From positions 528 through 64,527 of the IMG/VR virus record IMGVR_UViG_3300002461_000585: a stretch of DNA of 64,000 bases. One strand, given 5' to 3'. The notes beneath the pieces are model-generated. The model was not told the origin of the DNA and did no database searches. It saw nothing but the letters and a program-made list of their open reading frames with translations. Origin of the DNA: a virus. The position numbers and the translations under genes were made by a program. Of this stretch, positions 4,628-52,010 are shown in pieces; within the stretch, counting starts at the first letter, position 1, and each line of letters starts with the position of its first letter.

Positions 4628-4984
4628 TCAAGAGGTTTTCTTCGCGCGAACGTCGATGCGGTAGTAGCCGGCCGTGGGCGAGGTGTGCGCCACGATCCGC
4701 TGCTTGCTGGGCTTCATGCTCATGGCCAGGGCCTGCCAGTCCACCTTGGTGCCGCCCTGCACCTCGGCCACCGTGGCGCGGTAGAACGCGCTCTCGTAGG
4801 CGCGCTGGTTGCCGGTGATGAGGATGTCCTTGCACGCGGCCTCCTCTTCCTTGAGCGAGGCGATGGCGCTCTTGAGGTAGGCCAGCCGGTCCACAGCCTG
4901 CTCGGGGGTGAGCACGCCGTTGATGGCGCTCTGGGGTGCGTTGGTGATGACGGTGTCGATGGCGTTGTTGAAAGTCGTGTTCAT
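4628..4984 (-). CDS. Conserved hypothetical phage protein (118 aa)
   Basis: CAGGA RBS; coiled-coil plus VDWQALA motif. Confidence 0.7.
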   Translation of the reverse strand: MNTTFNNAIDTVITNAPQSAINGVLTPEQAVDRLAYLKSAIASLKEEEAACKDILITGNQRAYESAFYRATVAEVQGGTKVDWQALAMSMKPSKQRIVAHTSPTAGYYRIDVRAKKTS

Positions 4985-5005
4985 TTTGAAAGTCCTGATA
5001 GTTGG

Positions 5006-5029
5006 AAAAAGCCGCAGGACCGCTGCGGC
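5006..5029 (-). terminator. Intrinsic terminator-like hairpin (GCCGCAG-CGGTC-CTGCGGC-TTTTT), member of the repeated CGGYY-loop hairpin family
   Basis: 7-bp GC stem plus T5 on the minus strand. Confidence 0.65.
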
Positions 5030-5042
5030 GCCGGATTCGAAA

Positions 5043-5324
5043 TCAAGACGAGCAGTTGGCGCCCATGTACCAGTTGCCGTCTCGATCCATGATCAGCAGC
5101 GCGGCTTCCCACTTCTCCGCGTTTTCGTCGAGCCACTGCTCTGCGTCAGCAGCGTCCTTGGCCTGCCACGCGCGCACCTCCACACCCTGAGCTTCAGCAA
5201 AGCTGCCGCTGTACCCTGCATGGCCGTAGTCGTATTTGGCCTGCTCGATGACTGCCTGCGCCTGTTGCACGGCCTCGTGCTTGGTCTTGGCGTTGAGCTT
5301 CCGAAAGTTGAAATTGCAACCCAT
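5043..5324 (-). CDS. Hypothetical phage protein (93 aa)
   Basis: AAGGAG RBS; YGHAGYSGSFAE motif. Confidence 0.7.
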   Translation of the reverse strand: MGCNFNFRKLNAKTKHEAVQQAQAVIEQAKYDYGHAGYSGSFAEAQGVEVRAWQAKDAADAEQWLDENAEKWEAALLIMDRDGNWYMGANCSS

Positions 5325-5334
5325 GGTGTTCTCC

Positions 5335-5838
5335 TTAAACTTTGTCGATGGTGATGGTCAAGGTGCCGTCGCTGAACAGGTCGGCGATGACATCCGCCAC
5401 TTCCTGGCTGTCCAGTTCGGGGCCGTTGTCTTTGAACTTCCTGAACGCGTTGCGCAAATCCTGGATGTCCTGGTCGCGATCGTCCATTGCCGTCTTGAGC
5501 GTGCCGATGTCGTCTTCCACCACCTCTTTCAAAGCGAAGCGTTCTTGCATGCCGCTGAGGGTCTCCTCGATGCGGATGAAGCGCGCGCTCGCGCCGTTGA
5601 GCGTGCCGATCATGTGCTCCTGGTTCCGCTTCACGAGGTCGACCGTTGCCGCCAGCGTGTTGATGTCCTCGGCGAACTGCGCGCGCAGTTGCCCCAGGTT
5701 CGGCGCGGCCTGCGCACCCATCTGCCTGATCACCAGCGTCTCGACGAGTGCGGTGAAGCTGTCGCTGCGAATTACGTTGGCCACCTCTTGCGTGACGGCT
5801 TCGCGAATGGCTTCGGCGATGATGTGTTGAATGTTCAT
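5335..5838 (-). CDS. Coiled-coil hypothetical protein (167 aa)
   Basis: ATG at 5838 after CATCAGGAG RBS. Confidence 0.7.
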   Translation of the reverse strand: MNIQHIIAEAIREAVTQEVANVIRSDSFTALVETLVIRQMGAQAAPNLGQLRAQFAEDINTLAATVDLVKRNQEHMIGTLNGASARFIRIEETLSGMQERFALKEVVEDDIGTLKTAMDDRDQDIQDLRNAFRKFKDNGPELDSQEVADVIADLFSDGTLTITIDKV

Positions 5839-5853
5839 TTGAAACTCCTGATG

Positions 5854-5903
5854 AAAAAAGGCCGCATCGCGGCCGGGGTGGTGAAACTGTGAGCAGGGCT
5901 CAC
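5854..5903 (-). promoter_or_regulatory. Early-arm intergenic element: palindrome GTGAGC-AGG-GCTCAC (5889-5903) plus terminator-like hairpin GGCCGC-GAT-GCGGCC-T6 (5854-5874)
   Basis: Direct sequence inspection. Confidence 0.7.
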
Positions 5904-6112
5904 GCGTTGCTCTTGTAGAAGTCCGAGTCGGGGCCGTACTTGTGGAACAGGCCTGCGAAAGCCGTGAGCAGCGTTTTCCTGTTGAAGCTGTCTGCCACCA
6001 TCGCTGCGTCTGCGATGTGGCACGCGAAGGCACCGCCAAATCTGTTCATCGCCGCGCACGTGTAGATGATCTCGTCGTGGGTGTAGTCGATGGGGTTGCG
6101 TTGGGTCATCAC
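5900..6112 (-). CDS. Hypothetical phage protein (70 aa)
   Basis: GGAFA..IADA...AD..NR motif typical of small phage proteins; stop codon lies inside the palindrome. Confidence 0.7.
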   Translation of the reverse strand: MMTQRNPIDYTHDEIIYTCAAMNRFGGAFACHIADAAMVADSFNRKTLLTAFAGLFHKYGPDSDFYKSNA

Positions 6113-6333
6113 ATGCCTCCTTCATGAACTTGCGCACCGTAGTGCACGGCTTGTGCCTGGGCGTAGCGCATGGCGTCGACCCAGACCTTGAAGTCAGCGA
6201 GCCACTCGAACTCGCCGGGCTCGCCCTTGTAGACGGACCACTGCCCCGGCACTTCACCGGGGGCTGCAGCGGTCACGCCGCCGCCCATGTCGACCACGGT
6301 CGGCAGCAACTGAATGAACTTGATCTGCTTCAT
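6109..6333 (-). CDS. Hypothetical protein (74 aa)
   Basis: AGGAG RBS, coupled overlaps. Confidence 0.65.
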   Translation of the reverse strand: MKQIKFIQLLPTVVDMGGGVTAAAPGEVPGQWSVYKGEPGEFEWLADFKVWVDAMRYAQAQAVHYGAQVHEGGM

Positions 6334-6536
6334 GCTTCTTCTCCTTTGAGCTTGAGATTGAGATTGAGGTTGATCTGGGCGTTGCGGATGGTGCCTGTGC
6401 GCGCATATGCGATGAGCCGCACCATGGGCTCGATGGGTATGGCGCTCGCCTTGCGTTTGCCCGCCGTGATTTCTGCCAGCGCTCTCTCAAGCGCGTCGGC
6501 ATGCGCGAGCAGTTCCTTGCGTTCTTCACCAGTCAT
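6330..6536 (-). CDS. Hypothetical protein (68 aa)
   Basis: AGGAG RBS, ATGA overlap. Confidence 0.65.
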   Translation of the reverse strand: MTGEERKELLAHADALERALAEITAGKRKASAIPIEPMVRLIAYARTGTIRNAQINLNLNLKLKGEEA

Positions 6537-6910
6537 GTTGCTTCTCCTAAATGCGGGAATGCCCGCGTCATGCGTTCGACGAACGCTTCATCTTCTTCGG
6601 TGAGCCCAAGCCGCAGCCCGCACTCGTTTTCCTTGAGGTCTTGCGCTACCGCGCGCCGCTGCGCAATCGCAGCGAACAACTTACCCACGCCGAAGTCGCT
6701 CTTCTGCGGACGCATGCGCCAGCGCGTGTTGCCCGGCCAGTAGTCGAAGATCGCACCGCCTTCCTCGATGGCGATGTGTGCGCCGCCGTTGTGCACGGTG
6801 TAGTTGATGCCGCGGTCTTTGAGTTGCTGCTCGGCCCGGGCGCGCCGCTCGGCGCGCTCCCGCTTTTGCTGCGCCTTGTAGGCGGCCCAGAGTTCGGTCT
6901 CTTCGTTCAC
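6533..6910 (-). CDS. Hypothetical phage protein (125 aa, GTG start; NGGAHIAI...FDYWPG)
   Basis: C-terminal part of ORF-track 6533..7156; GTG start overlapping the upstream TGA. Confidence 0.6.
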   Translation of the reverse strand: MNEETELWAAYKAQQKRERAERRARAEQQLKDRGINYTVHNGGAHIAIEEGGAIFDYWPGNTRWRMRPQKSDFGVGKLFAAIAQRRAVAQDLKENECGLRLGLTEEDEAFVERMTRAFPHLGEAT

Positions 6911-7125
6911 GGCGTCACCGCCGTCATCGTGCCCGTGGTGACATCGATGTGGTAGTTCACAGGTTGGTCGCTCTCGACAGCGCGGCACTCGACGACTGCC
7001 ATCCAGCGGTTCATGAGGTCGCGTGCGCTGTACTCGGCCTCTTCCTTCGTGGCGAAGGCGAGGCTGTTCTGGTAGAACTTCGGGTCGGTGCCGGTGCGCA
7101 CCTCGGGCTTCCATGATTTGCTCAT
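6907..7125 (-). CDS. Hypothetical protein (72 aa, MSKSWKPEV...FATKEEAE)
   Basis: AGGAG RBS before ATG 7125. Confidence 0.7.
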   Translation of the reverse strand: MSKSWKPEVRTGTDPKFYQNSLAFATKEEAEYSARDLMNRWMAVVECRAVESDQPVNYHIDVTTGTMTAVTP

Positions 7126-7385
7126 TTCGTTTCTCCTGGGTTGGCGAACGCGACATCGACCACGAGCTTGAGCAGGCGCCCGGTGATCAGGACCACGTGC
7201 TTGTTGCCCTGCTGGTCCATGCAGATCAGGTCGATCGTGGGGAGCTGCTGCACCGTGCCCTTGCGCACGATCACAGCGTCGGTGACGACCGCTGTGTTGG
7301 GTCGCTTCTCCCACTCGTTGTAGTTGAAGCCATAACCCGTGGCGTCGTCGGCGTCTTCGAAGACGTGCATCTTGATTCCTTGCAT
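7122..7385 (-). CDS. Hypothetical protein (87 aa)
   Basis: GGAG RBS before ATG 7385. Confidence 0.65.
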   Translation of the reverse strand: MQGIKMHVFEDADDATGYGFNYNEWEKRPNTAVVTDAVIVRKGTVQQLPTIDLICMDQQGNKHVVLITGRLLKLVVDVAFANPGETK

Positions 7386-7386
7386 T

Positions 7387-7563
7387 TCAGTTCTCCAGGG
7401 TTGGATGGTTCTTAAAATCTTCGTCCGTCGCTTGTCGCACCGTGATCCACCCGATGCCGACCCACTGCTTGAGCATGCCGTCCTCGATGACATGCGTGTG
7501 CTTCTTCTCGTTGCCTGCGACCATGCGCAGGTTCGTGACTTCGCTTCTCTTGATGGTGCCCAT
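7387..7563 (-). CDS. Small phage protein (58 aa, MGTIKRSEV...DGMLKQWVGIGWI)
   Basis: Manual translation; GGAGG RBS; fills the gap exactly. Confidence 0.7.
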   Translation of the reverse strand: MGTIKRSEVTNLRMVAGNEKKHTHVIEDGMLKQWVGIGWITVRQATDEDFKNHPTLEN

Positions 7564-7564
7564 C

Positions 7565-7777
7565 TCAGTGCCCTCCGCCGATATGTTTGCGCGCCAGCGA
7601 GCGCGCCCGTTCCGCTGCGTTGCTGAGTGCGTAGTCGTTGCTCATGTGACCGAAGCGGGCGCACTCTTGCCAGCGTCCGTCCACCAGTTCCTCGACGACC
7701 TCGTGGTCCTGCCCGCCGGGGTACTTGGCGCTCTCGGTGCGCACACGCACGTGCTCTCCGTAGGGTGTGGTTTTCAT
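7565..7777 (-). CDS. Hypothetical protein (70 aa)
   Basis: GAGGAG RBS before ATG 7777. Confidence 0.65.
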   Translation of the reverse strand: MKTTPYGEHVRVRTESAKYPGGQDHEVVEELVDGRWQECARFGHMSNDYALSNAAERARSLARKHIGGGH

Positions 7778-7778
7778 A

Positions 7779-8192
7779 TCACTCCTCCTCTTTGCTGCAG
7801 AACTCGCCGAACGCCGCGAGAGTGCCTTTGAACACCCGCGCGCGGTAGCTGCGCACCGTGACCTCGATGTCGAGCGCCGGGGTGATCGTGACCTCGTAGC
7901 CGTAGTCCTCGCCATCGAGCTTGGTGCGGGGCTTGACCATGTAGATGCCGCCCGCCCCCGCTTCTTCTTTGAAGTGCTGGACCATCTGCGCTGCGAGGCA
8001 GCCGGCGCCGTTGGCAATCTTGCGCTTGTCATTCATGCTCATGCCGTTGACGATGGTGAACTGCGACAGGAAGTCGAAGAGCTCCTTGCCATGGCCGCTG
8101 GGGTAGCCGTCGAACTGACGGTACATGGTGCAGAGCACTTCCTTGTTGTCGAAGGCGTTGTCGATGATGGTGGTGATGGAACGTGTACCCAT
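7779..8192 (-). CDS. Conserved hypothetical phage protein (MGTRS...YRQFDGYPSGHG)
   Basis: Recognisable N-terminal motif; CATCAGGAG RBS. Confidence 0.8.
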   Translation of the reverse strand: MGTRSITTIIDNAFDNKEVLCTMYRQFDGYPSGHGKELFDFLSQFTIVNGMSMNDKRKIANGAGCLAAQMVQHFKEEAGAGGIYMVKPRTKLDGEDYGYEVTITPALDIEVTVRSYRARVFKGTLAAFGEFCSKEEE

Positions 8193-8217
8193 GATTTACT
8201 CCTGATGGTTTCTAAAG

Positions 8218-8280
8218 ACCGCAGGACCGCTGCTGCGCCGGTTTGTGTGAGCGATGCTCACGTTTTTGACACCGGTTGGA
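8218..8280 (-). promoter_or_regulatory. Composite early-arm element: TCCAACCGGTGTC (8268-8280), palindrome (8247-8261), CGGTC-loop hairpin (8218-8241)
   Basis: Repeated at several other intergenic sites. Confidence 0.75.
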
Positions 8281-8282
8281 AG

Positions 8283-8876
8283 TCAGAGCGCAAGCTCAAG
8301 CTGCTTCATCGGCGCGATGCGTGCTGCTTCCTCTTCGAGCAACGCGGTCACGTCCTTGACCGTCTCGTCCAGGCCGTACATGCCCCAGCAGCTGTCGACC
8401 TGCTCGCCATTGAGCTCGATCTTGTAGCCGTACACCTCGCCACTGAGCCATTGGTTGAAGGTCTCGACCTCGCCCTTGAGCACATCGAGAATGCGGAACT
8501 TCAACTTGCGTGAGGGCAGCTTGCGGCCGAACTCCTTGAGCGCCTTGTCGCGCATCACGTACACCCAGCCACTGCGCCCGCTGTCCCACGGGCATGAGAA
8601 CGGATTGGTGAGCGCAGCCTTGATCGTGGCGCCGCTGTGCACGTAGGCCCACACAGGCAGGCCGTAGGCCTCTTCATCGCGCACCATGCGTGCGATCTCC
8701 GCGTCCTGCTCGGCGCTCTTGGGGTGCGTGCCCAACACGTTGCGTGCGCTCTTGTTGTAGGTGATCTCGCCCAGCGTGTCCCAGCTGGCGGGCGACTCGG
8801 GGTCGATGTCGTAGTAGATGTGTGCGACGAGTCCGGGCACACGCGAGTTGATGGTCTTGATTGCGTCCATGTTCAT
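8283..8876 (-). CDS. Conserved hypothetical phage protein (197 aa; CPWDSG...EVETFNQWLSGEVYGY...DSCWG)
   Basis: ORF with AAGGAG RBS; motif-rich; function not assigned. Confidence 0.75.
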   Translation of the reverse strand: MNMDAIKTINSRVPGLVAHIYYDIDPESPASWDTLGEITYNKSARNVLGTHPKSAEQDAEIARMVRDEEAYGLPVWAYVHSGATIKAALTNPFSCPWDSGRSGWVYVMRDKALKEFGRKLPSRKLKFRILDVLKGEVETFNQWLSGEVYGYKIELNGEQVDSCWGMYGLDETVKDVTALLEEEAARIAPMKQLELAL

Positions 8877-8881
8877 TCTCC

Positions 8882-9247
8882 TTAAATGACTTCGTCGACA
8901 GGCTTGCTCTTGACGACCGTACGGGCGACCTCCTTGGGTGCTTCGTCATCGTCGAGGCGGATGAGGTTGCTCTGCATCTTCCCGAGGAATCGCGAGGGCA
9001 CCTTCTTCTGCAGGTCGCGCGAATACGCGCCCACGATGGCGCGCATCAGGTCTGGATGCCCGGGCAGCGCCTCGACAATCCACGTGCCCTTCAACCACGG
9101 CTGTATCTTTTGCATCGAGTCCCCCGGCAGCGACTCGTAGGGCGCCGGCTTGCGCAGGACACGCACCACGCGGCCGATGTTCTCCTTGCAGTGCTTTGCA
9201 CGCACGATGAGTGCCAGACATCCTGGCTCGATGGGTTTGCCTTTCAT
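8882..9247 (-). CDS. Hypothetical protein (121 aa)
   Basis: AAGGAG RBS before ATG 9247. Confidence 0.65.
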   Translation of the reverse strand: MKGKPIEPGCLALIVRAKHCKENIGRVVRVLRKPAPYESLPGDSMQKIQPWLKGTWIVEALPGHPDLMRAIVGAYSRDLQKKVPSRFLGKMQSNLIRLDDDEAPKEVARTVVKSKPVDEVI

Positions 9248-9702
9248 GCTTGCACTCCTTGCAAAGCGTCGATCTGGGACTGGATGCGCCACAGCGCAAG
9301 CTCTTTGTCGGTGACCCGCGCGTCGACCTCAACCCACTCCTGGCCGTTGACATACGTGCCGGGGTGCGCATGGTCCCGGTAGCCGCTGCCCCGCTCGGCA
9401 AACAGGTTGTCGAAGGCACTGGGGCCGAAGTGCTCGTCGAGCCAGCTGAAGTCGTAACCGCCGTGTTCTTCGTCGAACTCGGGTTCTCCGACTGTGGGCA
9501 GCAACCCGTAGAAGCGGGTGTCGGTCTGCTCCAGGCGCATGATCGGAGCGAAGCGATCGGACATGGCGAGCCATCCTGCAGCGCATGCGATGGTGCCGCA
9601 CTTCTTGACTTGCTTGAAGGTGTGCAGGTCGAAGACGTCGTCGTGGATCTCGGACAGGATGCGGTGCGCATCGATGAGGTTCTTGATGATGGTGTTGCTC
9701 AT
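9244..9702 (-). CDS. Hypothetical phage protein (152 aa; CGTIACAAGW motif)
   Basis: CATCAGGAG RBS. Confidence 0.75.
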   Translation of the reverse strand: MSNTIIKNLIDAHRILSEIHDDVFDLHTFKQVKKCGTIACAAGWLAMSDRFAPIMRLEQTDTRFYGLLPTVGEPEFDEEHGGYDFSWLDEHFGPSAFDNLFAERGSGYRDHAHPGTYVNGQEWVEVDARVTDKELALWRIQSQIDALQGVQA

Positions 9703-9719
9703 TGCATTCTCCTGATGAG

Positions 9720-9772
9720 AAAAAAGCCGCAGGACCGCTGCGGCGCCGGGTAGTGTGAGCGTTGCTCACACT
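9720..9772 (-). promoter_or_regulatory. Composite early-arm element: extended palindrome AGTGTGAGC-GTT-GCTCACACT (9752-9772) plus CGGTC-loop hairpin with T6 (terminator-like, 9720-9749)
   Basis: Direct sequence inspection. Confidence 0.75.
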
Positions 9773-9779
9773 GTTGCGA

Positions 9780-10178
9780 TCAGCCCAGTTCGGACAGTCG
9801 TTGCTGGATCTGCTCGGGCGTGAGGTTCTTCAGCGCCTCGTCCTGCTTGTCGGCCAGGACACCCAGCAGCTTCTCGCGCTCGACCTTGCGTGCGGCAGCG
9901 GTGCGTGCCGCCTCGTTCTCGGCCAGTCGCACAGCGATGATGTGCTTGACGATCTCCAGCTTGGCCGTGGCCTGCACTTTGCCGGGCTTCTCGGCCGTAG
10001 CCACGAAGCTGTCGTCGGTCAGCGCCTTGAGTTCGGCGTAGGCTGACTTGGCCACGCTGTCCAGATCGAAGTTGGTCTTCGATTGCAGGGGCAGGTCCCA
10101 CAGTTGCTCGGTGGTGATGAGGCCCTTGATGCTTGAGAAGCGGATGGCGTTGCGGGTTGCGAATTCGAACAGGTTCAT
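9780..10178 (-). CDS. Conserved hypothetical phage protein (132 aa, coiled-coil)
   Basis: MNLFEFATRN.IRF...TEQLWDLPL motif; GGAG RBS. Confidence 0.8.
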   Translation of the reverse strand: MNLFEFATRNAIRFSSIKGLITTEQLWDLPLQSKTNFDLDSVAKSAYAELKALTDDSFVATAEKPGKVQATAKLEIVKHIIAVRLAENEAARTAAARKVEREKLLGVLADKQDEALKNLTPEQIQQRLSELG

Positions 10179-10217
10179 TTGAAACTCCAGATGGTTGAGA
10201 AAGAAAAACGGAATGGG

Positions 10218-12263: not shown

Positions 12264-12289
12264 TTGAAATACTCCTGATGATGAAAAGC

Positions 12290-12354
12290 GTGAGTGGTGC
12301 TCACAGTTGGGTGCCGGGGCTGTGCCCCCGGCTGCATCCCTGACACCGGTCGGA
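12290..12354 (-). promoter_or_regulatory. Composite early-arm element: TCCGACCGGTGTC (12342-12354), GC hairpin (12313-12332), palindrome GTGAGT-GGT-GCTCAC (12290-12304)
   Basis: Direct sequence inspection. Confidence 0.7.
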
Positions 12355-12356
12355 TG

Positions 12357-12695
12357 TCAGGCAGTTGCGTTGTCGTAGAGGCCCCGCAGCATGCGCTTGG
12401 CGTGCTCCGGGTCGGGCCACTCCTTGTTCTGGTGGACGTAGACAGCCAAGTGATGGCCGAAGGGCTCGCTGACCTCGTAGCACCACACGAACGTGACCTC
12501 GCCCTGCCCCACCACCTCGGCGAACAGCGCGTCGTCCAGCGCGGCGAAGCCGATGAGGTCGGACATGATGCCGGTCTCACCCTCGTCGCTGATGGGCTCC
12601 ATGTTGGTGTCGTACTGGCGCACGGTTTCCCAGAAGCCCCTGACGATGTAGGCCAGGACGATCAGGTCCTGCTCGGGTGCTTTGATGATGCTCAT
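12357..12695 (-). CDS. Hypothetical acidic protein (112 aa)
   Basis: AAGG RBS before ATG 12695. Confidence 0.65.
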   Translation of the reverse strand: MSIIKAPEQDLIVLAYIVRGFWETVRQYDTNMEPISDEGETGIMSDLIGFAALDDALFAEVVGQGEVTFVWCYEVSEPFGHHLAVYVHQNKEWPDPEHAKRMLRGLYDNATA

Positions 12696-12700
12696 GGTGT

Positions 12701-12988
12701 TCAACCTTTCTTGTTGCGGGCCTTGGCCGCGTGACGCTGGTGCTGCTTGACGGATGCGCGGTAACGCTTGCCCACAGGCGCGCGATGGCGCTTGTAGTAG
12801 CCAGTGCCCAGTCGGTCGCTCTTCGTGTCACTGGGCGCGTTCTGGCCACGATCTGCGGGGGTTTGCTTGGTGCTCGTGAGCTCGCTGATGGTCTGCGTGC
12901 CGCCGGGGGTGGCAGTTGCGTTGATGCCTGCACCTGCGAGCGCGCCCATGGCGAGTGCTGCTGCGCGGAATGAATTTGACTTTCTCAT
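12701..12988 (-). CDS. Hypothetical basic protein with hydrophobic N-terminus (95 aa)
   Basis: AAGG RBS; flanked by 13-bp direct repeats. Confidence 0.6.
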   Translation of the reverse strand: MRKSNSFRAAALAMGALAGAGINATATPGGTQTISELTSTKQTPADRGQNAPSDTKSDRLGTGYYKRHRAPVGKRYRASVKQHQRHAAKARNKKG

Positions 12989-12990
12989 GT

Positions 12991-13182
12991 TCAACCTTTC
13001 ACGTGCTCGTGGGTAACTACGGAGCACACGCCTTCGAGCAGTTCAGCGTGTGTCTGGGTGACGAGGATCGTCATGTGCGGGTGGCCGTTGTCGTTGAGCC
13101 ACTTGATGAGCGGCTTGGCTGCCGCCTCGAAGGATTGCTGCAGCGGGTCGGGGCCGTTGACGTTCTTCTCAAACGATGTCAT
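12991..13182 (-). CDS. Conserved small phage protein (AAKPLIKWL...HPH)
   Basis: CATCAGGAG RBS; recognisable motif. Confidence 0.75.
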   Translation of the reverse strand: MTSFEKNVNGPDPLQQSFEAAAKPLIKWLNDNGHPHMTILVTQTHAELLEGVCSVVTHEHVKG

Positions 13183-13198
13183 TACTTTCTCCTGATGT

Positions 13199-13258
13199 GT
13201 GAGCGTTGCTCACGGTTGTGCAGCGGAGCCGCCGCTGCGCCGGCCGACACCGGTCGGA
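13199..13258 (-). promoter_or_regulatory. Composite early-arm element: TCCGACCGGTGTC (13246-13258), CGGCT-loop hairpin (13220-13243), palindrome (13199-13213)
   Basis: Direct sequence inspection. Confidence 0.75.
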
Positions 13259-13259
13259 T

Positions 13260-13775
13260 TTAATAACTCTTGCGCGTGCGCACTCGCCACACTGTTTGCT
13301 TGGACACACCCATCTCAACGGCCAGTTCGCTTAGCGGCTTCTTGCTGAGGCGGATGCGTTTTGCCTGTGCGGGTGTGAGCTTGGACCTCGGGTGTGCTGC
13401 GCCCGCTGGTGTGCAGGCCTTGCGTCGCTTGTTGACCCACGAGTCGAGCAGGTTTTGCGACTTTGTACCCCACACAAGATTGCCTATGACGTTGTGCTTC
13501 TTGACGTCGTCTTTGTGCAGCACTACGTGCAGCGGGCATGGTTGTGGGGGACCGAAGGCCCGCATGATGAGTACGTGCATTCGCGTGTACTTGACGTTGC
13601 CATCAGCGCCTGTGAGCACGGCTCGCGGGTAGCCATAGCCATCGATGCCGAACAGTTCCCTGCCGACACGCGTTCGAGCGAGGGGCTGCACTCTTCGCAC
13701 ACGCCCCCCGTCCTTGCCTTGTCTGATTTCGTAGATGCCTTCGTACCCTGGAACAGGGCGCCATTCGTGCCGCAT
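13260..13775 (-). CDS. NUMOD4-HNH homing endonuclease
   Basis: WRPVPGYEGIYEI (NUMOD4); VLHKDD..HN..GNLVWGT..N (HNH); C-terminal HTH. Confidence 0.85.
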   Translation of the reverse strand: MRHEWRPVPGYEGIYEIRQGKDGGRVRRVQPLARTRVGRELFGIDGYGYPRAVLTGADGNVKYTRMHVLIMRAFGPPQPCPLHVVLHKDDVKKHNVIGNLVWGTKSQNLLDSWVNKRRKACTPAGAAHPRSKLTPAQAKRIRLSKKPLSELAVEMGVSKQTVWRVRTRKSY

Positions 13776-13831
13776 TGCTTCTCCTTTCAAAAAGAAATGC
13801 AGCGTACATCAACTCGTCAGATGTGGCAAGA

Positions 13832-14734
13832 CTATACGTGACAATCTACAATTGTCACCAGCGTGTCGTCGGGCAGCGCGTCGAACATGTCATTGAACTG
13901 CTGGTCCCAGGCGTTCTTGTCGCCCTCGTTGGTCACGATGCCGAACCAGCCCATCTCACCGCGTTCGACCCACTGGCCGTCCTTGAGAATGGCGAAGGTG
14001 CCGATGGCCCCGTTGCGTGCGATCTGCACGAACTCTTCGCGCGGCATGAAGTACGACTGCAGGTCGTCGAGCCACACGAACATATCGCGGTGCGGGTTGT
14101 CCTTGTCGTCGGCTGCGGCGATGATCGCCTTGCGCACATCCTGCCCGTGGTAGGTCTTGCGTGCAAGCTCGTAGTCCACCTCTCCGTTGCGCATCGACAT
14201 CTCCTTCGCCAGTTCCCACGGCATGAAGGTCATCTCGTGCGGGCCCACCACCGGGTTGATGATGTCCCACTTCTTGCCCGCCTTCTCACCGGCCTCGTTG
14301 CGCATGCCCTCGACGTCGATGTCACCCTTGCGCGCTTGGTCTGCGTAGCCGTTGCGCTCATCAGGCCCGTCGTCCAGCAGGCTGCGCTGACCGAGCTTGC
14401 CCTTGGCACCGGCCTTCAGCTTGAGGAAGCCCGACCAGCGACCGCCGATCCGGTACCAGTCCCACTTGCTGTTGGGGTTGTGGGTGCGGCCGAACTTGCC
14501 CGGCTCTTCCTCGCTCTCCTCGTAGCCGAAGTAATCCTCTGCGAAGCTGGCCATGCTCGCGTGCTCGGCCTTGTCGTCGGCGCTCAGTTTGTCCCAGCCT
14601 TCCTGAACTTCCTCGGTGCAGTCCTCGAACTCCAGGTACTCGGCAGGGCAGTCGCCCATGTTGTTCTCTTGGAAGGGTTCCAGCGCGGTTGCGATGTCGG
14701 TTGCGCCGATGACCATGACAGTGAAGTGACTCAT
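13832..14734 (-). CDS. Conserved phage protein (300 aa; MSHFTVMV...NPNSKWDWYRIGGRW)
   Basis: ATG 14734 with CAGGA RBS; recognisable motif. Confidence 0.8.
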   Translation of the reverse strand: MSHFTVMVIGATDIATALEPFQENNMGDCPAEYLEFEDCTEEVQEGWDKLSADDKAEHASMASFAEDYFGYEESEEEPGKFGRTHNPNSKWDWYRIGGRWSGFLKLKAGAKGKLGQRSLLDDGPDERNGYADQARKGDIDVEGMRNEAGEKAGKKWDIINPVVGPHEMTFMPWELAKEMSMRNGEVDYELARKTYHGQDVRKAIIAAADDKDNPHRDMFVWLDDLQSYFMPREEFVQIARNGAIGTFAILKDGQWVERGEMGWFGIVTNEGDKNAWDQQFNDMFDALPDDTLVTIVDCHV

Positions 14735-14755
14735 TTTGCTTTTCCTGATTGATGT

Positions 14756-14822
14756 GCCGCAGGGCCGCTGCGACGCCGGTTTGTGTGAGCACCGCTCACA
14801 GTTTTCTTTGACACCGGTCGGA
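14756..14822 (-). promoter_or_regulatory. Composite early-arm element: TCCGACCGGTGTC (14810-14822), palindrome (14785-14799), CGGCC-loop hairpin (14756-14779)
   Basis: Direct sequence inspection. Confidence 0.75.
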
Positions 14823-15170
14823 TCACAGGCTCGTGCCGCCGGGCGTGCGCTTCTTGCTGGCGCAGGGGTAGGTTGCCTTGAGGATGCTGCGCACCATGAC
14901 GTCGGCGTCCATGTGGCGGTACTCGGGCAGGCGGGTGAGTTCGCGCTTGACCACGTCCGTGATCTGGCCCACCTCGGTGCTCTCGGGTACGCACACCGTG
15001 GTGCCCGACTGCGTGTCGACGACAGCGATGACACACCCCATGGCGTAGGTCACCTCGACCTCGCTGCCGTTGAAGAAGCGCAGCAGCTTGTTGCCGTTGG
15101 TGAACTGGACCTGTGCGTGTGCGCTGAGGGCTGCGCCGAGCAGGGTGAGGGTTGCGATGGTGTGTTTCAT
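14823..15170 (-). CDS. Rap1a/Tai-like periplasmic immunity protein (signal peptide)
   Basis: Signal peptide (AHA); NGNKLL...G.V.AV.D...VC.P...GQ..DVVK..L...PE.RH..A...V...L..TYPC pattern of the Rap1a family. Confidence 0.75.
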   Translation of the reverse strand: MKHTIATLTLLGAALSAHAQVQFTNGNKLLRFFNGSEVEVTYAMGCVIAVVDTQSGTTVCVPESTEVGQITDVVKRELTRLPEYRHMDADVMVRSILKATYPCASKKRTPGGTSL

Positions 15171-15358
15171 TTGCCTTCTCCTGCGTGCAGTGCGGGTTGC
15201 AAGAGGCAGGTGATCGCCACGCCGATGCACAGGATGGACCAGACGCCGTCCGGGTCCGACATCAACGTGCCGCCCAGCAGGGCCAGCCCGAACAGGCCGA
15301 CCCAGTCATACCAGTGGTACTTCGGTTTGAAAAAGTTTCTCATGGTGCTTGCTTTCAA
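15167..15358 (-). CDS. Small two-TM membrane protein
   Basis: Two hydrophobic helices; coupled with the Rap1a-like gene; start may be 15343. Confidence 0.6.
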   Translation of the reverse strand: MKASTMRNFFKPKYHWYDWVGLFGLALLGGTLMSDPDGVWSILCIGVAITCLLQPALHAGEGK

Positions 15359-15363
15359 AAAAT

Positions 15364-15378
15364 GTGAGCGGTGCTCAC
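15364..15378. promoter_or_regulatory. Palindrome GTGAGC-GGT-GCTCAC
   Basis: Perfect copy of the repeated early-arm palindrome, intergenic. Confidence 0.7.
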
Positions 15379-15394
15379 GGTTGGGGGAATTGGC

Positions 15395-15661
15395 TCACGC
15401 CGGCAGGCGGCCACGAATGGCGCGCTTGTCGAGGTCATCGTAGTTACCCAGGAATTCGATCCGGGTGTTGCGTGCATTGAGGTCGGGGTGCTTCCACTTC
15501 ATGGCGTACCCGTTGGGCAGCCAGATGCGTTCGTACTTGCCTTTGGCCAGCGCGTCGATGACCGGCTTGGCCTGTGCCAGCGTGAAGGGTATCGGTGTGC
15601 CCGAGGCGCGCGCCTCTGCATCAAGGTCGCCGAAGCGTTTGAAGAAGGTGATCGTTTTCAT
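15395..15661 (-). CDS. Hypothetical protein (88 aa)
   Basis: GAGGA RBS, ATGA overlap. Confidence 0.65.
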   Translation of the reverse strand: MKTITFFKRFGDLDAEARASGTPIPFTLAQAKPVIDALAKGKYERIWLPNGYAMKWKHPDLNARNTRIEFLGNYDDLDKRAIRGRLPA

Positions 15662-16704
15662 GTGTTGTCCTCATCGGTTGATTGATCTTCGTCGTAGTCC
15701 CGCAGGCATGCCGCCTTCGCCTTGTCCAGCAGGAAGGGCACCTTGCGCCGGTCGCGCAGCGTTGATGGCACGTTTGACCATGCCTCGTCGAGCGCGTCGA
15801 TCTCTGACTTCGTCATGTAGTGGTGCCAGCGCGAGTCGTGCACCATCACCCGGTCAGCCCGGTGTGCGTAGGTGCGCATGGTTGGCCTGCCCACGGGGTT
15901 CTGTGCCCGCGCCTCCTCTCGCTGGTCCTGCTTCTTGTACCGCGCTCGCAGCACATCCTGCTGCCGTGGCGAGGCCTTGGCCAGTGCGATCTGCCGGCGA
16001 CGCAGCACCTCGTCTCGCTTGTCTTGTCGTGCCTGCTCACGGGCCCGGCGCTTGGGCTCGTTCGCCTCTTGCCGATCCGCGGCCTTCTGCCCGGCACGGT
16101 ACACACGCAGGTCTTCCCGGTTGGCCTCGCGCATCTGGGCTTGGAAGCGGGTGCGCAGGTCGCGCATCACCTCGGCGTGCAGGTGCAGGAAGGCGATCAC
16201 CTCGGCGTTGCCCTCGGGGGGCGGGATGCGTTTGACATTGTCCAGCGCGTAGGTGCTGGCCCTCAGTTCAGCAGCCAGGACGCCGCGAGCATGTGCCCAT
16301 GGTCGCTGCCACACCTCGTCCCACTTGCGCTTGCGCCCCTCGGCCAGCTTGCGTTTGGTTCTGGCTGCTGCCGTCTTGAGCAGGTGGGGCGCGACGACGA
16401 GGCGCTGGTTCTCAGGCAGTGCGCCCTTCTTCAAGGCACGCACCAGTTCACCGGGGGTCATGTCCTCCAGCTGCTTCGATGGCCGTGCAATGGTGTGCAA
16501 CGGGTGCTTCTTGTCGCCCCGTGCACGGGTCAGGCAGTGTTTGCAGTACTTCCACTCCTGCTCGGCAGACGAGAACGCCGTGGTTTTGCGCAACGGATCG
16601 CGCACTTGGAAGTCTCGAACGGGGTAAACGCAGTGGCAGTGAGCACATATCTTGCCCGGTGGCCCCTCAAGTGGGGTGAGTATGAAATCTGGTTGATCCG
16701 ACAT
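15658..16704 (-). CDS. Basic hypothetical protein with N-terminal CxxC...CxxC Zn finger (about 348 aa)
   Basis: ICAHCHC...YCKHC; start ambiguous (16704 preferred). Confidence 0.65.
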   Translation of the reverse strand: MSDQPDFILTPLEGPPGKICAHCHCVYPVRDFQVRDPLRKTTAFSSAEQEWKYCKHCLTRARGDKKHPLHTIARPSKQLEDMTPGELVRALKKGALPENQRLVVAPHLLKTAAARTKRKLAEGRKRKWDEVWQRPWAHARGVLAAELRASTYALDNVKRIPPPEGNAEVIAFLHLHAEVMRDLRTRFQAQMREANREDLRVYRAGQKAADRQEANEPKRRAREQARQDKRDEVLRRRQIALAKASPRQQDVLRARYKKQDQREEARAQNPVGRPTMRTYAHRADRVMVHDSRWHHYMTKSEIDALDEAWSNVPSTLRDRRKVPFLLDKAKAACLRDYDEDQSTDEDNT

Positions 16705-16732
16705 AAAGAACCCTTTCTGTCGTGAGTGTAGT

Positions 16733-16747
16733 GTGCGCATCGCTCAC
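16733..16747. promoter_or_regulatory. Palindrome variant GTGCGC-ATC-GCTCAC
   Basis: One mismatch to the repeated palindrome, upstream of a gene. Confidence 0.55.
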
Positions 16748-17117
16748 AGTCAAGAAGGTGGCCCCCAATTAACGACATCCTTGGAACGTCCGGGCGGGCA
16801 TGTAGAAAGTGAGCATTTATGCGGGCTCCGAGGGCTTGGTGGGCAGGGTTCCTACTCCTCACAACACAACGAGGTCACTCCCGCGCACGCACTAACACAA
16901 CACAGCCTGAACGCGGCATTTTGCAAGCGAGTCCAAACTGTTGTGCACAAATGCGGATATATACAACTATATTTATAAAGATAAGTAGTAGTAGTGGGGC
17001 AAATTGGGCTTGCGCCCAGTATCCGCGCGGGTTGCGAGGCAGTGTGTACGCACAGAAGTGTCGTGAGAGTGGGCCAGTGCCCGGAGCACCCCAAAATGGA
17101 GTACTCCGGTATTACTT

Positions 17118-17396
17118 TCAGTGCTGAACCTGCATGGCGCTCCACTTGCGAGCACGCGGCTTCACGTAGACGGGTACGTCCCGTACCTGCCAGAGAGGCG
17201 ACTCATAGGGCAGGCCTTGGAAGAGCGGGACCGAGATGAAGCGCACGGGCAGCAGGATGGAGCGGAACGAAGGGCGCAGGGCGCGAAGGGCCAGGGCGCC
17301 AGCAGGCAGGGACAGGTGAGCGATGTGGGTGTGGGTAGCACCCGTGCTAACCCCAGACTTGTTGGAAGCGGCGATGGTGTTGTTTGCGTAGGTCAT
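17118..17396 (-). CDS. Hypothetical protein (92 aa)
   Basis: CAGGAG RBS directly after a composite element. Confidence 0.55.
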   Translation of the reverse strand: MTYANNTIAASNKSGVSTGATHTHIAHLSLPAGALALRALRPSFRSILLPVRFISVPLFQGLPYESPLWQVRDVPVYVKPRARKWSAMQVQH

Positions 17397-17413
17397 TTGA
17401 AGCTCCTGAAAGT

Positions 17414-17503
17414 GTGAGCGTTGCTCACGGTTTGATGTGCAGCAGGACCGCTGCTGCGCCGGGGTTTTGGACTCCTGCTCGGCCGTGGCCGACACCGGTC
17501 GGA
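17414..17503 (-). promoter_or_regulatory. Composite early-arm element: TCCGACCGGTGTC (17491-17503), CGGTC-loop hairpin (17439-17462), palindrome (17414-17428)
   Basis: Direct sequence inspection. Confidence 0.75.
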
Positions 17504-17504
17504 G

Positions 17505-17741
17505 TCAGGCGTGGGTTGGCTCTTCGGTGAAGTCGCACAGTTCGTCGTGCCGGCCGGCGAGCAGACGGATGCAGACGCCGGGGTTGTTGGGCTCTTCGAG
17601 CGCACACAACGCTCCGTACCAGAACGTGTGGACCATCTTGGCGCCGGTCTTGGTCTGGGGCTTGGTCTGGGGCTTGGCGCCGTTGGCTGTGAGGAAGCCG
17701 GCGCACTGGCGCTTGAGGGAGGCGAACTTGTCGTTGGGCAT
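17505..17741 (-). CDS. Hypothetical phage protein (78 aa) with PQTK duplication
   Basis: GGAG RBS; 12-bp duplication. Confidence 0.65.
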   Translation of the reverse strand: MPNDKFASLKRQCAGFLTANGAKPQTKPQTKTGAKMVHTFWYGALCALEEPNNPGVCIRLLAGRHDELCDFTEEPTHA

Positions 17742-17757
17742 GGGGTTCTCCAGAAGT

Positions 17758-17772
17758 GTGAGCAGTGCTCAC
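17758..17772. promoter_or_regulatory. Palindrome GTGAGC-AGT-GCTCAC
   Basis: Perfect copy directly upstream of an RBS. Confidence 0.7.
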
Positions 17773-17898
17773 GGTTACAAAGGGCGCAGCAGTTGGACAC
17801 GCGCTGCCCGTGAAGTCAGGCGATGTGGTGCTGGAACAGCGTGCGAAACGACACCATCGCGTCGCTCGCCCCGCAGTTCCAACGCTCACACTGACAAA

Positions 17899-18306
17899 TC
17901 AAACAGCCTTGCAAGCACGGATGACAGCGGCCATCCGCTTCGCATCGCCCCCACAGGCTGCACAGAATGCGTCATACGCTGCGCGCTCGGCCGACTTGAC
18001 CCGCACTGGCGTCACCACGGTTTCGTGCGCCACAGGGCCCATGACGGCTTTGCACAGCTTGGAGAGCGCGGTGCGCGCGGCCATGCTGACCTTGTCGTCG
18101 TCGCACACGAACTTGCCCGTCGTGCCGTGCTCGGCGCACTCGATGCCATAGAACTTGGCGACGCCGGGGCGCAACGCGATGGTCAATGCGTCACGGTCAC
18201 GCAGCGTTGCACGTGGCAGCGCAGCACGAAGATCAGCGACGCGTTGCTGAAAGGATGCGGCGGCCTTGAGGGTGTTGACGACTGCGGTGTTGATGATGGA
18301 AGACAT
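17899..18306 (-). CDS. Hypothetical protein (135 aa), first gene of the leftward arm
   Basis: AGGAG RBS. Confidence 0.7.
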   Translation of the reverse strand: MSSIINTAVVNTLKAAASFQQRVADLRAALPRATLRDRDALTIALRPGVAKFYGIECAEHGTTGKFVCDDDKVSMAARTALSKLCKAVMGPVAHETVVTPVRVKSAERAAYDAFCAACGGDAKRMAAVIRACKAV

Positions 18307-18322
18307 GGATAACTCCTAGTGT

Positions 18323-18337
18323 GTGAGCATCGCTCAC
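18323..18337. promoter_or_regulatory. Palindrome GTGAGC-ATC-GCTCAC
   Basis: Perfect copy directly upstream of the RBS of the first early gene. Confidence 0.7.
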
Positions 18338-18571
18338 GGTTTGTGATGTCGAATGGCCTATCCAACCGACACCTTAATTATATGAATAGAGCTTTTCTGT
18401 CGTTGCGGTGTGCCGTGCGATCCGGGTGTGCGACCCCCACCGGTGGGCGGGGGACCGATATTGCGATGTGATGTGGCGACTTGTAGTAACACTGTTTCAC
18501 ACCTAGATTGGGTTTCCGGTGTAAAATCATGTCTAAACAGCCGATCAACACACCCCCGGGGGCCCCAAAAA

Positions 18572-43638: not shown

Positions 43639-43699
43639 CCGGGCATAATCACAGCGCCGCTTGACGGCGCTTTTCAGCCTCTACGGAGCACACACAGCT

Positions 43700-51841: not shown

Positions 51842-52010
51842 ACCAGACGCCGTAGGCGCCTCGAACGATGGCGGGGCGACCCTCTGCCCTCACCCGAGCG
51901 CCTACGGCTGCCCTGAGGCCCATTTCGCGGACCTGGGCCACGTTGATGCAGGGCACGAAGAAGCCCTGCCCCACTTCAAGCCTGCTCCACGGCCACGTCA
52001 TCTTCACCAA
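51741..52010 (-). CDS. Small conserved phage protein (W..LEVGQGFFVPC)
   Basis: Recognisable motif; overlaps the primase 3' end and the giant gene 3' end. Confidence 0.55.
   Translation of the reverse strand: MVKMTWPWSRLEVGQGFFVPCINVAQVREMGLRAAVGARVRAEGRPAIVRGAYGVWFSRLPDAVRRGSAGRAPTPPAATDPPAPASAPE

What the first reader, a model, noticed from the sequence alone, without database searches (positions are those of the whole stretch)
5006..18337. Shuffled multi-part regulatory cassettes punctuate the early gene array
Seen: at least five intergenic spacers (8218-8280, 12290-12354, 13199-13258, 14756-14822, 17414-17503) draw on the same parts. On the minus strand these read: stop codon, 0-2 nt, module A (TCCRACCGGTGTC), then module B (GTGAGC-N3-GCTCAC) and a hairpin, then an RBS (CATCAGGAG in three of the five) and ATG. 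The hairpin is module C (CCGGC plus CGGYY-loop stem) in four of them; 12290-12354 has an unrelated GC hairpin. The order is A-B-C at 8.2 and 14.8 kb and A-C-B at 13.2 and 17.4 kb. Partial versions occur at 5.0, 5.9, 9.7, 15.4, 16.7, 17.8 and 18.3 kb, and I found none in the 45 kb of structural and replication genes. Known analogues are T4-type PeSL mobile regulatory cassettes, phiC31 conserved early repeats and cluster K mycobacteriophage SAS/ESAS. Inference: a phage-specific system that both regulates and recombinationally shuffles accessory genes, with an architecture I do not recognise from described phages.
Basis: partly seen in the sequence, partly recalled or inferred. Interest (0 to 1): 0.85.

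Follow-up and report, generated by a model that had tools for sequence, protein, structure and literature searches.

The report
Repeated control cassettes between phage early genes
An uncultured water phage places the same small set of DNA parts (a motif right after the stop codon, a perfect palindrome, a hairpin with a fixed loop and a standard ribosome site) between its early genes. Related phages keep the layout but swap the palindrome sequence, which points to a phage-specific regulator, not yet found, that addresses all early genes together.

Summary
Module B (GTGAGC-N3-GCTCAC) has 9 perfect and 3 one-mismatch copies, all at 5889-18337 (0.59 expected). Module A has 5 copies and module C has 5-6. 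None lies in the late or replication arms.

The window is a 67-kb, apparently lytic, uncultured phage. Relatives carry the same cassettes.

- **B:** arms are invariant within a genome and the centre is free. Across the clade at least five arm types occur, all 6+3+6. Sister phages differ by a compensatory pair at an orthologous site. B is not enriched in 401 Burkholderiales genomes.
- **C:** a hairpin whose seven pairs all covary, with an invariant CGG in the loop. It also occurs sporadically in bacteria and in another phage family.
- **Shuffling:** gene-content breakpoints are not enriched at cassettes (9/17 versus 28/53 junctions).

Best reading: these are expression-control cassettes in a hyperplastic early operon. 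B is the recognition site of a fast-switching phage factor, most likely a DNA operator or roadblock. An RNA hairpin role is the main rival. C and the other hairpins act as attenuators or stabilisers.

The binder was not found; three candidate proteins were rejected. Closest analogues are Cluster K SAS/ESAS, the Cluster O 17-bp palindromes and PeSLs.

The parts
18377..18382 (-). TATAAT box of the conserved first early promoter block. The first B lies about 40 nt downstream, inside the 5' UTR of the first gene.
   Evidence: Read. The same block, TAnAAT followed by a 5' hairpin and then B, is present in G003, L155 and L157 (L157 has TGgTATAAT). The 5' hairpin is predicted.
18323..18337 (-). B copy 1, 16 nt upstream of the ATG of the 135-aa first gene (17899-18306).
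   Evidence: A B-type site precedes this gene family in every relative checked.
17758..17772 (-). B copy 2. A GC hairpin with TTTGT lies just upstream, and an SD and ATG follow.
17397..17504 (-). Full cassette in the order A (17491-17503), C (17436-17466), B (17414-17428), then SD and ATG.
16725..16753 (-). Sigma-70-like promoter TTGACT-17-TACACT. Its spacer is an imperfect B (16733-16747). It lies upstream of the Zn-ribbon basic protein gene (15658-16704).
15364..15378 (-). B copy followed by ATTTTTT, which gives it a terminator-like look, then the ATG.
14735..14822 (-). Full cassette in the order A (14810-14822), B (14785-14799), C (14753-14783), then SD and ATG.
   Evidence: Homology with G001 resumes exactly at A.
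13183..13259 (-). Full cassette in the order A (13246-13258), a C variant with the stem GCAGCGG/CCGCTGC (13217-13247), B (13199-13213), then CATCAGGAG and ATG. It lies directly after the HNH gene.
12264..12356 (-). Cassette made of A (12342-12354), an unrelated GC hairpin (12313-12332) and a one-mismatch B (12290-12304), then CATCAGGAG and ATG of the 681-aa gene.
9703..9779 (-). Cassette in the order B (9755-9769), then C followed by a U-run (9723-9753), then CATCAGGAG and ATG.
   Evidence: terminator-like. The RNA fold has z = -3.4. G001 lacks window 9770-12711, and the breakpoint falls at this B.
8193..8282 (-). Full cassette in the order A (8268-8280), B (8247-8261), an imperfect C (8221-8241), then CATCAGGAG and ATG.
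5839..5903 (-). B (5889-5903), whose TGA is the stop codon of the upstream gene. A canonical terminator (5860-5874 plus T6) follows, then CATCAGGAG and ATG.
4985..5042 (-). C alone, followed by a U-run (5008-5038), then the SD and ATG.

Best explanation
**Setting (shown).** The stretch is the hyperplastic early arm of a roughly 67-kb, apparently lytic, uncultured phage from water and activated-carbon samples.

**Transcription (inferred).** Host RNA polymerase most likely reads the arm from a few sigma-70-type promoters, near 18.38 and 16.75 kb, as polycistronic RNA.

**The cassette (shown as sequence features).** The spacers hold cassettes built from four parts:
- A, a 13-mer placed 0-2 nt after the stop codon.
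- B, a perfect 6+3+6 palindrome.
- A hairpin, which is either module C or an ordinary GC hairpin, with or without a U-run.
- A standard Shine-Dalgarno block.

**B (inferred).** I take B to be the recognition site of a trans-acting, phage-encoded, sequence-specific factor that controls all early gene blocks together. The most likely form is a symmetric dimer binding double-stranded DNA. It would occlude the promoter where B fills a promoter spacer (16.7 kb) and act as a roadblock elsewhere. Its purpose would be timed shut-off or autoregulation of early genes.

**The hairpins (inferred).** C and the other hairpins would act on the RNA as leaky terminators, attenuators or end-stabilisers that divide the array into segments.

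**What is shown:** the anatomy, the conservation, the covariation and the type switching.

**What is inferred:** binding, the DNA level of action and the shut-off role.
For: - **Restricted and non-random.** 12 B sites against 0.59 expected, all in the early arm.
- **Conserved arms, free centre.** In 42 distinct copies from five genomes the arms are nearly invariant and the 3-nt centre is unconstrained.
- **Shared with diverged relatives.** The same motif occurs 8-10 times in relatives with only about 70% nucleotide identity.
- **Lineage-specific variants with one geometry.** Other lineages carry GGGACA, GAGACA, GTTAGA or GCGGAA arms, all 6+3+6, at the same positions.
- **Compensatory switch at one site.** Sister phages L002 and L004 differ by a compensatory A:T to G:C change at an orthologous site whose flanks are well conserved, with long identical runs.
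- **Not a host motif.** B is no commoner in 401 Burkholderiales genomes than a reversed control.
- **Operator position.** One copy exactly fills the 17-bp spacer of TTGACT-17-TACACT.
- **No promoter of its own.** Most other copies have no flanking sigma-70 hexamers and sit 16-28 nt from the ATG, too close for a host promoter.
- **C is structured.** 7 of 7 pairs covary, 97.7% of cells are paired, and the loop CGG is invariant.
- **Terminator-like hairpins.** Several of the cassette hairpins carry U-runs.
Against: - **No binder found.**
  - The Cro-like HTH protein keeps an identical recognition helix in a phage with a different palindrome.
  - The first-gene protein tree does not follow palindrome type.
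  - The Zn-ribbon protein is not universal in the clade.
- **The flanks are asymmetric.** AAACY lies upstream and AC plus a T-rich SD block lies downstream. These flanks persist when the core switches. Spacing to the SD is fixed in most copies. All of this fits an RNA-level role better than a symmetric DNA site.
- **Read-through is needed.** Arrangements of terminator, B and SD, or of B, terminator and SD, both require transcription to pass a terminator.
- **No transcript or binding data exist**.
Confidence: 0.42

Rival explanations
1. B works as an RNA hairpin in the early transcripts. A phage-specific RNA-binding protein would bind it to control either translation of the next gene (B lies 3-10 nt upstream of the SD) or read-through of the neighbouring terminators, in a multi-copy system resembling nut or RAT sites. 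B and C together would form a two-hairpin RNA element.
For: - Every copy is co-oriented with transcription and lies in a UTR.
- The first copy sits in the 5' UTR downstream of a TATAAT box.
- Distance to the SD is fixed, and the conserved single-stranded flanks survive core switching.
- B abuts C through a short conserved linker, ACC(C)G.
- C shows true covariation with a fixed loop.
- Arm length varies from 5 to 9 bp between lineages while pairing is kept.
- B followed by a T-run looks like an attenuator in several copies.
- No co-varying DNA-binding protein was found.
Against: - There are no compensatory or G:U variants within a lineage in 42 copies. Single mismatches are G:U-compatible only at the neutral rate (3 of 6 transitions).
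- The loop is unconstrained and the stem is sequence-specific, the reverse of most RNA-protein hairpin sites.
- In B-C-SD cassettes B is too far from the SD to block a ribosome.
- No N-like arginine-rich protein was seen.
Confidence: 0.28
2. The cassettes are chiefly mobile regulatory units, like PeSLs, whose shared sequence drives recombinational gain, loss and reordering of accessory genes.
For: - The early arm is hyperplastic.
- Six homology-block ends between G000 and G001 coincide with cassette edges.
- The same cassette precedes unrelated genes, and its position differs between G002 and G004.
- Module order differs at orthologous junctions.
- Repeated loop triplets such as AAC, seen three times, suggest cassette duplication.
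Against: - Breakpoints are no more frequent at cassette junctions than at plain gene junctions: 9/17 versus 28/53, odds ratio 1.0.
- Only one of 12 B sites has sigma-70 hexamers, so the promoter half of a PeSL is missing.
- Invariant arms with free loops argue for selection rather than copy-paste homogenisation.
Confidence: 0.1
3. B is a hairpin promoter for a phage-encoded or virion-carried RNA polymerase, as in N4 (5-7 bp stem, 3-nt loop). Transcripts would start just after the palindrome.
For: - The stem and loop sizes match, and the cores are lineage-specific, like phage RNA polymerase promoters.
- The orders terminator-B-SD and B-C-SD make sense if C is read as a 5' stabilising hairpin.
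- A 2726-aa virion protein lies next to the ejection protein gene.
Against: - No RNA polymerase was found. There is no PF00940 match, although that control rang nowhere.
- No DFDGD motif occurs in any real ORF.
- The giant protein matches only LPD38 and nothing in the PDB.
- The first B sits behind a host-type TATAAT box.
- N4 has 3 such promoters, not 12.
Confidence: 0.06
4. The hairpins are purely structural: weak bidirectional terminators, or insulators in front of standard ribosome sites. Their uniformity would come from concerted evolution, and no dedicated binding factor would exist.
For: - A-rich upstream and T-rich downstream flanks make B score as terminator-like on both strands.
- The G006 sites are plain bidirectional terminators.
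- No binder was identified.
Against: - The arms are invariant while the loops are free, across genomes that share only about 70% identity.
- All copies switch together between sister phages.
- Conversion tracts covering both arms would also homogenise the loops, which stay different.
Confidence: 0.1

Closest known systems
Cluster K mycobacteriophage SAS/ESAS (PMC3203893)
   Same: - A conserved block containing the SD lies right before many start codons.
- In a subset it is preceded by inverted repeats whose consensus differs between sub-lineages.
- All copies share one orientation.
- The function is unknown.
   Different: - ESAS are two imperfect 17-bp repeats with a 4-13 bp spacer. B is one perfect 6+3+6 palindrome.
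- This phage adds a post-stop motif (A) and a covarying hairpin with CGG in its loop (C).
- The host and the phage group are unrelated.
Cluster O mycobacteriophage 17-bp repeat TGTTCGG-N3-CCGAACA (PMC4351075)
   Same: - Arms are invariant around a 3-bp centre.
- There are many copies.
- The phages are not obviously temperate.
- The function is unknown.
   Different: - Cluster O has more than 30 copies spread over the whole genome, a third of them inside genes, with no polarity.
- Here there are 11-12 copies, all intergenic, all in the early arm, with polar flanks and linkage to the SD.
PeSL cassettes of T4-type phages (PMC2839356, PMC4122927)
   Same: Composite stem-loop and regulatory elements lie between ORFan genes in hyperplastic regions, and their sequence differs between lineages.
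   Different: - PeSLs carry a sigma-70 (or Mot-type) promoter. Here only 1 of 12 B sites has such hexamers.
- Breakpoint enrichment at the elements is not seen here.
Cluster A stoperators (PMC9283540, PMC6550527)
   Same: Many repressor sites lie in short intergenic gaps along operons. The sites co-evolve with their binder, and they offer a roadblock mechanism.
   Different: - Stoperators are asymmetric 13-mers bound by a monomer in temperate phages, and they occur genome-wide.
- B is symmetric and limited to the early arm.
- No tyrosine integrase (PF00589) was found.
Lambda nut (boxA-boxB) / N antitermination (from my own knowledge)
   Same: - A promoter-proximal hairpin lies in the 5' UTR of the first early gene, with terminators downstream.
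- Specificity is lineage-specific.
- C has a conserved pentaloop and a short conserved 5' flank.
   Different: - Nut sites number 1-2 per genome and are recognised through the loop.
- B has a free loop and 12 copies.
- No N-like protein was found.

Membership tests
PeSL (promoter-early stem-loop) | A stem-loop directly followed by a sigma-70-type early promoter (-35, N17, -10). | tested here: not met
   Hairpins are present. Only the 16.7-kb copy has hexamers flanking B. In the B-SD cassettes there is no room for a host promoter.
PeSL (promoter-early stem-loop) | Indels and replacements between close relatives end at the elements. | tested here: not met
   9/17 cassette junctions versus 28/53 plain junctions carry a breakpoint, odds ratio 1.0, p = 1.0. 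The sample is small and the gene calls are my own.
PeSL (promoter-early stem-loop) | Located in hyperplastic regions next to ORFans. | tested here: met
   Many early genes are absent from G001, or only about 50% identical there, although TerL is 90% identical. Most early proteins match no Pfam family.
Cluster K SAS/ESAS | A conserved asymmetric block containing the SD immediately upstream of many start codons. | tested here: met
   CATCAGGAG occurs 7 times on the early strand, always before an ATG. ACTTTCAGGAG follows B in L155, L157 and G414.
Cluster K SAS/ESAS | Two imperfect 17-bp inverted repeats with a variable 4-13 bp spacer upstream of the SAS. | tested here: not met
   B is a perfect palindrome with 6-bp arms and a fixed 3-bp centre.
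Cluster O 17-bp palindrome | Invariant 7-bp arms with a 3-bp centre. | tested here: met
   The 6-bp arms are invariant, and a 7th pair (T..A) is present in about 40% of copies.
Cluster O 17-bp palindrome | Copies spread genome-wide, partly inside genes, with no orientation. | tested here: not met
   All copies lie in the early arm and are intergenic, apart from one probable chance hit. Their flanks are polar.
Stoperator system | Asymmetric sites oriented with transcription, bound by an immunity repressor of a temperate phage. | tested here: not met
   The core is symmetric. No tyrosine integrase (PF00589) was found. No repressor was identified.
Lambda-type nut/N | A hairpin recognised through a conserved loop, together with an N-like arginine-rich protein. 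| tested here: not met
   The B loop is free. The first-gene product is a folded all-alpha protein with no arginine-rich motif. C does have a conserved loop, but it has about 6 copies.
N4-type hairpin promoter | A hairpin with a 5-7 bp stem and a 3-nt loop. | tested here: met
N4-type hairpin promoter | A virion or phage RNA polymerase that uses the hairpin as its promoter. | tested here: inconclusive
   There is no PF00940 match, but the control genomes did not ring either. No DFDGD motif was found. The giant virion protein has no polymerase match. A very divergent enzyme cannot be excluded.

The most novel reading that the evidence does not exclude
A whole clade of uncultured water phages would use a multi-copy 'address label'. 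The label is a short hairpin or palindrome whose sequence switches between sister phages through compensatory changes. It is paired with a possible pseudoknot hairpin carrying CGG in its loop. Together they would form an RNA-level code read by an unknown, rapidly exchanged phage factor that licenses read-through or translation of every early gene block. That would be a new kind of many-site antitermination or translation-control system. It would also act as a specificity barrier between co-infecting relatives, like immunity groups but in lytic phages.
Probability: 0.18. Interest if true: 0.78.

Novelty: new variant of a known kind. Interest (0 to 1): 0.55.

Why it matters
**An open question that this clade could help answer.** Repeated intergenic motifs of unknown function have been reported in several phage groups, including SAS/ESAS and the Cluster O repeats, and none has been explained.

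**What this clade offers.**
- Many natural variants exist: at least five palindrome types share one geometry.
- Sister phages differ by a single compensatory pair.
- Some contigs are complete genomes by CheckV's estimate.
- This makes the search for the binder a tractable association problem of palindrome type against gene content.

**Possible pay-offs.**
- If the factor is found, it would show how lytic phages address and time dozens of ORFan early genes together.
- It would also give a compact set of orthogonal operator and regulator pairs.

**A separate lead.** Module C is a candidate new small structured RNA motif shared by unrelated phages and a few bacteria.

Tried and rejected
- **Close GenBank relative.** None found. 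TerL is only 41-45% identical to the nearest GenBank phages.
- **Rfam.** Nothing relevant matched in the early arm or in the bacterial loci.
- **RNA-seq.** No RNA runs hold this phage, so transcript ends could not be mapped.
- **Host REP-like origin of C.** Rejected. There are only 9 exact hits among 185,579 species genomes, each a single copy.
- **C as a conserved nusG-rplK element.** Rejected. It was absent downstream of nusG in all 14 other genomes of that class where the end of the gene could be read.
- **B as a host transcription-factor motif.** Not supported.
- **Cro-like HTH protein (55151-55447) as the B binder.** Rejected. I walked the L155 contig. Its recognition helix is identical to the GTGAGC-type phages although its palindrome is GGGAC-type.
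- **First-gene 135-aa protein as the binder.**
  - The fold has no PDB match.
  - Its tree does not follow palindrome type.
- **Zn-ribbon basic protein as the binder.** Not supported. G000 and G001 share only 18% identity although both carry GTGAGC, and no homologue was detected in GGGACA-type genomes.
- **Type-restricted conserved proteins (6907-7125 and 4628-4984).** Neither shows DNA-binding features.
- **Pairing of A with the C flank (CCGGU:ACCGG), suggested by folding.** There is no covariation, because relatives with ACCAGT in A keep CCGG in the C flank.
- **RNA polymerase hunt.** Negative.

Full report
**What the window is.**
- It is bases 528-64527 of a 66,966-bp IMG/VR virus record that CheckV rates 100% complete. 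GC content is 63%.
- Codon-position GC and family hits give two divergent arms.
  - Small genes on the minus strand run from 18306 down to 1. They continue over the record's ends into replication genes: primase-helicase at 51976-54975, helicase at 57953-59512 and DNA polymerase at 61740-63869.
  - Structural genes on the plus strand run from 18410 to 51841. They include an HNH gene, TerL, the portal, an ejection protein and a 2726-aa LPD38 protein.
- No tyrosine integrase and no RNA polymerase was found.
- GenBank holds no close relative. TerL is 41-45% identical to pelagiphage HTVC027P/023P, DSL-LC04 and others.
- DNA runs that hold the phage come from activated-carbon, drinking-water and groundwater samples. 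No RNA run holds it.

**Check of the observation.**
- B (GTGAGC-N3-GCTCAC) has 9 perfect and 3 one-mismatch copies, all within 5889-18337. The expectation is 0.59, and no shuffle reached 12.
- A has 5 copies against 0.2 expected, each 0-2 nt after a stop codon.
- C has 5 copies against 0.02 expected, plus a variant at 13.2 kb.
- The module orders, the unrelated GC hairpin at 12.3 kb and the CATCAGGAG count are as stated.
- There is also a fourth recurring part. It is a standard ribosome block, CATCAGGAG, often followed by TTCAAATG, at seven early genes.

**Relatives.** IMG/VR and other assemblies hold many relatives.
- G001 has 90% TerL identity and is syntenic. G002 has 70%. G003 and G004 are fragments. 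L157 is another member.
- All carry 5-10 copies of the same B in their early arms, and also carry A and C.
- A logo from 42 distinct copies shows invariant arms, a free 3-nt centre and polar flanks, aAAACY upstream and ACwT downstream.
- The early arm is hyperplastic. Many genes differ between G000 and G001, and G001 lacks window 9770-12711.

**The palindrome is lineage-specific.**
- Other clade members carry a different palindrome of the same 6+3+6 form at the same places.

| Arm type | Found in |
|---|---|
| GGGACA | G005, G007, G414, G010, L155 |
| GTTAGA | G009 |
| GAGACA | L002 |
| GCGGAA | L049-L053 |

- In L155 and G414 the flanks (AAACC upstream, ACTTTCAGGAG downstream) match the G000 type while the core differs.
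- On a TerL tree the types switch repeatedly. GGGACA needs at least five changes, and sister phages differ in type.
- At the orthologous first site of sisters L002 and L004 the flanks are well conserved, with long identical runs. The arms differ by a compensatory A:T to G:C pair.
- B is no commoner in 401 Burkholderiales genomes than a reversed control.
- Together these results argue for a genome-specific trans-acting reader of B. They argue against a host motif or plain structure.

**DNA or RNA?**
- For DNA:
  - The dyad symmetry is perfect and the centre is free.
  - One copy fills the spacer of TTGACT-17-TACACT.
  - No G:U or compensatory variation occurs within a lineage.
- For RNA:
  - All copies lie in UTRs and are co-oriented.
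  - The first copy lies downstream of a conserved TATAAT block and a 5' hairpin.
  - Most copies end 16-20 nt before the ATG.
  - The flanks are asymmetric and survive core switching.
  - B abuts C through a conserved linker.
- A host promoter role is excluded for most copies by spacing.
- I favour a DNA operator or roadblock (0.42) over an RNA operator (0.28).

**Module C.**
- Across lineages its stem changes (GCCGCAG, GCAGCAG, GCCACAG, GGCGCAG, GCCAGT, GCCGGT, ACTGGT) while the loop keeps CGG and a CCG lies 2-4 nt upstream.
- All 7 pairs show changes on both sides and 97.7% of cells pair. The covariation score is 0.71 against 0.17 for shuffles, with 0 of 500 shuffles as high.
- One caveat applies: I chose the sequences by requiring pairing, so the paired fraction is inflated. 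The variety of stems at homologous positions is still real.
- A 3-bp pairing between the loop and the flank is possible but cannot be tested.
- Some copies carry U-runs and look like terminators.
- The exact 24-mer occurs once each in nine bacterial genomes.
  - In two Rhodocyclaceae MAGs and one MAG labelled Ignavibacteria it lies between nusG and rplK.
  - In Rhizobacter it lies after a probable P4-type integrase gene (judged from the C-terminal sequence, not tested) near tmRNA.
- It also occurs in a separate phage family.
- It is not a general nusG-rplK feature.

**Shuffling.**
- Six homology-block ends between G000 and G001 coincide with cassette edges.
- Identical cassettes precede unrelated genes in G002 and G004.
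- Breakpoints nevertheless fall at gene junctions in general. The counts were 7/12 versus 11/26 in one pair and 2/5 versus 17/27 in the other. Pooled, they give 9/17 versus 28/53, odds ratio 1.0.
- The claim that cassettes drive shuffling is therefore not supported.

- The Cro-like HTH protein is universal in the clade. In L155 its recognition helix is identical to that of GTGAGC-type phages, although L155 has a GGGAC palindrome.
- The 135-aa first-gene product is always preceded by a B-type site. Its tree does not follow palindrome type and its fold matches nothing.
- The Zn-ribbon basic protein always carries an imperfect B at its 5' end, but it diverges fast within one type and is not universal.
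- Two type-restricted, well-conserved small proteins show no binding features.

**Comparison with known systems.**
- The nearest analogues are Cluster K SAS/ESAS (PMC3203893), the Cluster O 17-bp palindrome (PMC4351075), PeSLs (PMC4122927) and stoperators (PMC9283540).
- Each shares some features, and each fails at least one defining test (see the membership table).
- I therefore class this as a new variant of a known kind: phage intergenic regulatory repeats.

Noticed in passing
L113:1215-1238, L117, L120, L118/L119, L114; L121-L136: The exact 24-mer of module C occurs as a single copy in a few bacteria. In two Rhodocyclaceae MAGs and one MAG labelled Ignavibacteria it lies between nusG and rplK. 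In Rhizobacter it lies after a probable P4-type integrase gene near tmRNA. It also occurs in a separate phage family of about 36-38 kb, where a second hairpin (CCGGC-AGTCC-GCCGG) precedes it.
   Followed up: partly
window 13260-13775 (-), promoter-like 13831-13858: This is an HNH (NUMOD-type) homing endonuclease gene with its own sigma-70-like promoter. It is 95% identical in G001 while its neighbours differ, and it sits directly upstream of an A-C-B cassette.
   Followed up: partly
window 16705-17117: This 419-nt spacer has an AT-rich core and lies upstream of the Zn-ribbon protein gene. L155 has a similar 410-nt spacer at the same place (L155:11556-11966).
   Followed up: no
window 15658-16704 (-): This fast-evolving 300-360-aa protein has an N-terminal CxxC...CxxC zinc ribbon, very basic helices and a GRP motif. 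It is present in the GTGAGC-type phages and L155, and always has an imperfect B at its 5' end.
   Followed up: partly
window 10218-12263 (-): This 681-aa protein belongs to phrog_1735. It is 43-51% identical to proteins of N4-like and T4-like phages of many hosts and is absent from the close relative G001, so it is an accessory gene of unknown function.
   Followed up: partly
window 14823-15170 (-): This is a Rap1a-type immunity protein domain (PF18602, E = 7e-12) in the early arm, with no effector nearby.
   Followed up: no
window 55151-55447 (-): This 98-aa Cro-like HTH protein lies just upstream of the primase gene and is conserved in every complete clade genome checked.
   Followed up: yes
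G002:23070-23165 (L106:3070-3165): Four tandem 24-bp repeats, each holding a GCCGGC-N3-GCCGGC hairpin, lie directly after a B site.
   Followed up: no
window 43661-51841 (+): This 2726-aa virion protein has an LPD38 domain at its C-terminus. A 2794-aa homologue lies at the same place in the L155 contig.
   Followed up: partly
window 1674-2651 (-): This DUF932 protein (E = 4e-47) is conserved in G001, G002, G004 and G010. It lies behind a CATCAGGAG ribosome block and a hairpin with a U-run, without A, B or C.
   Followed up: no
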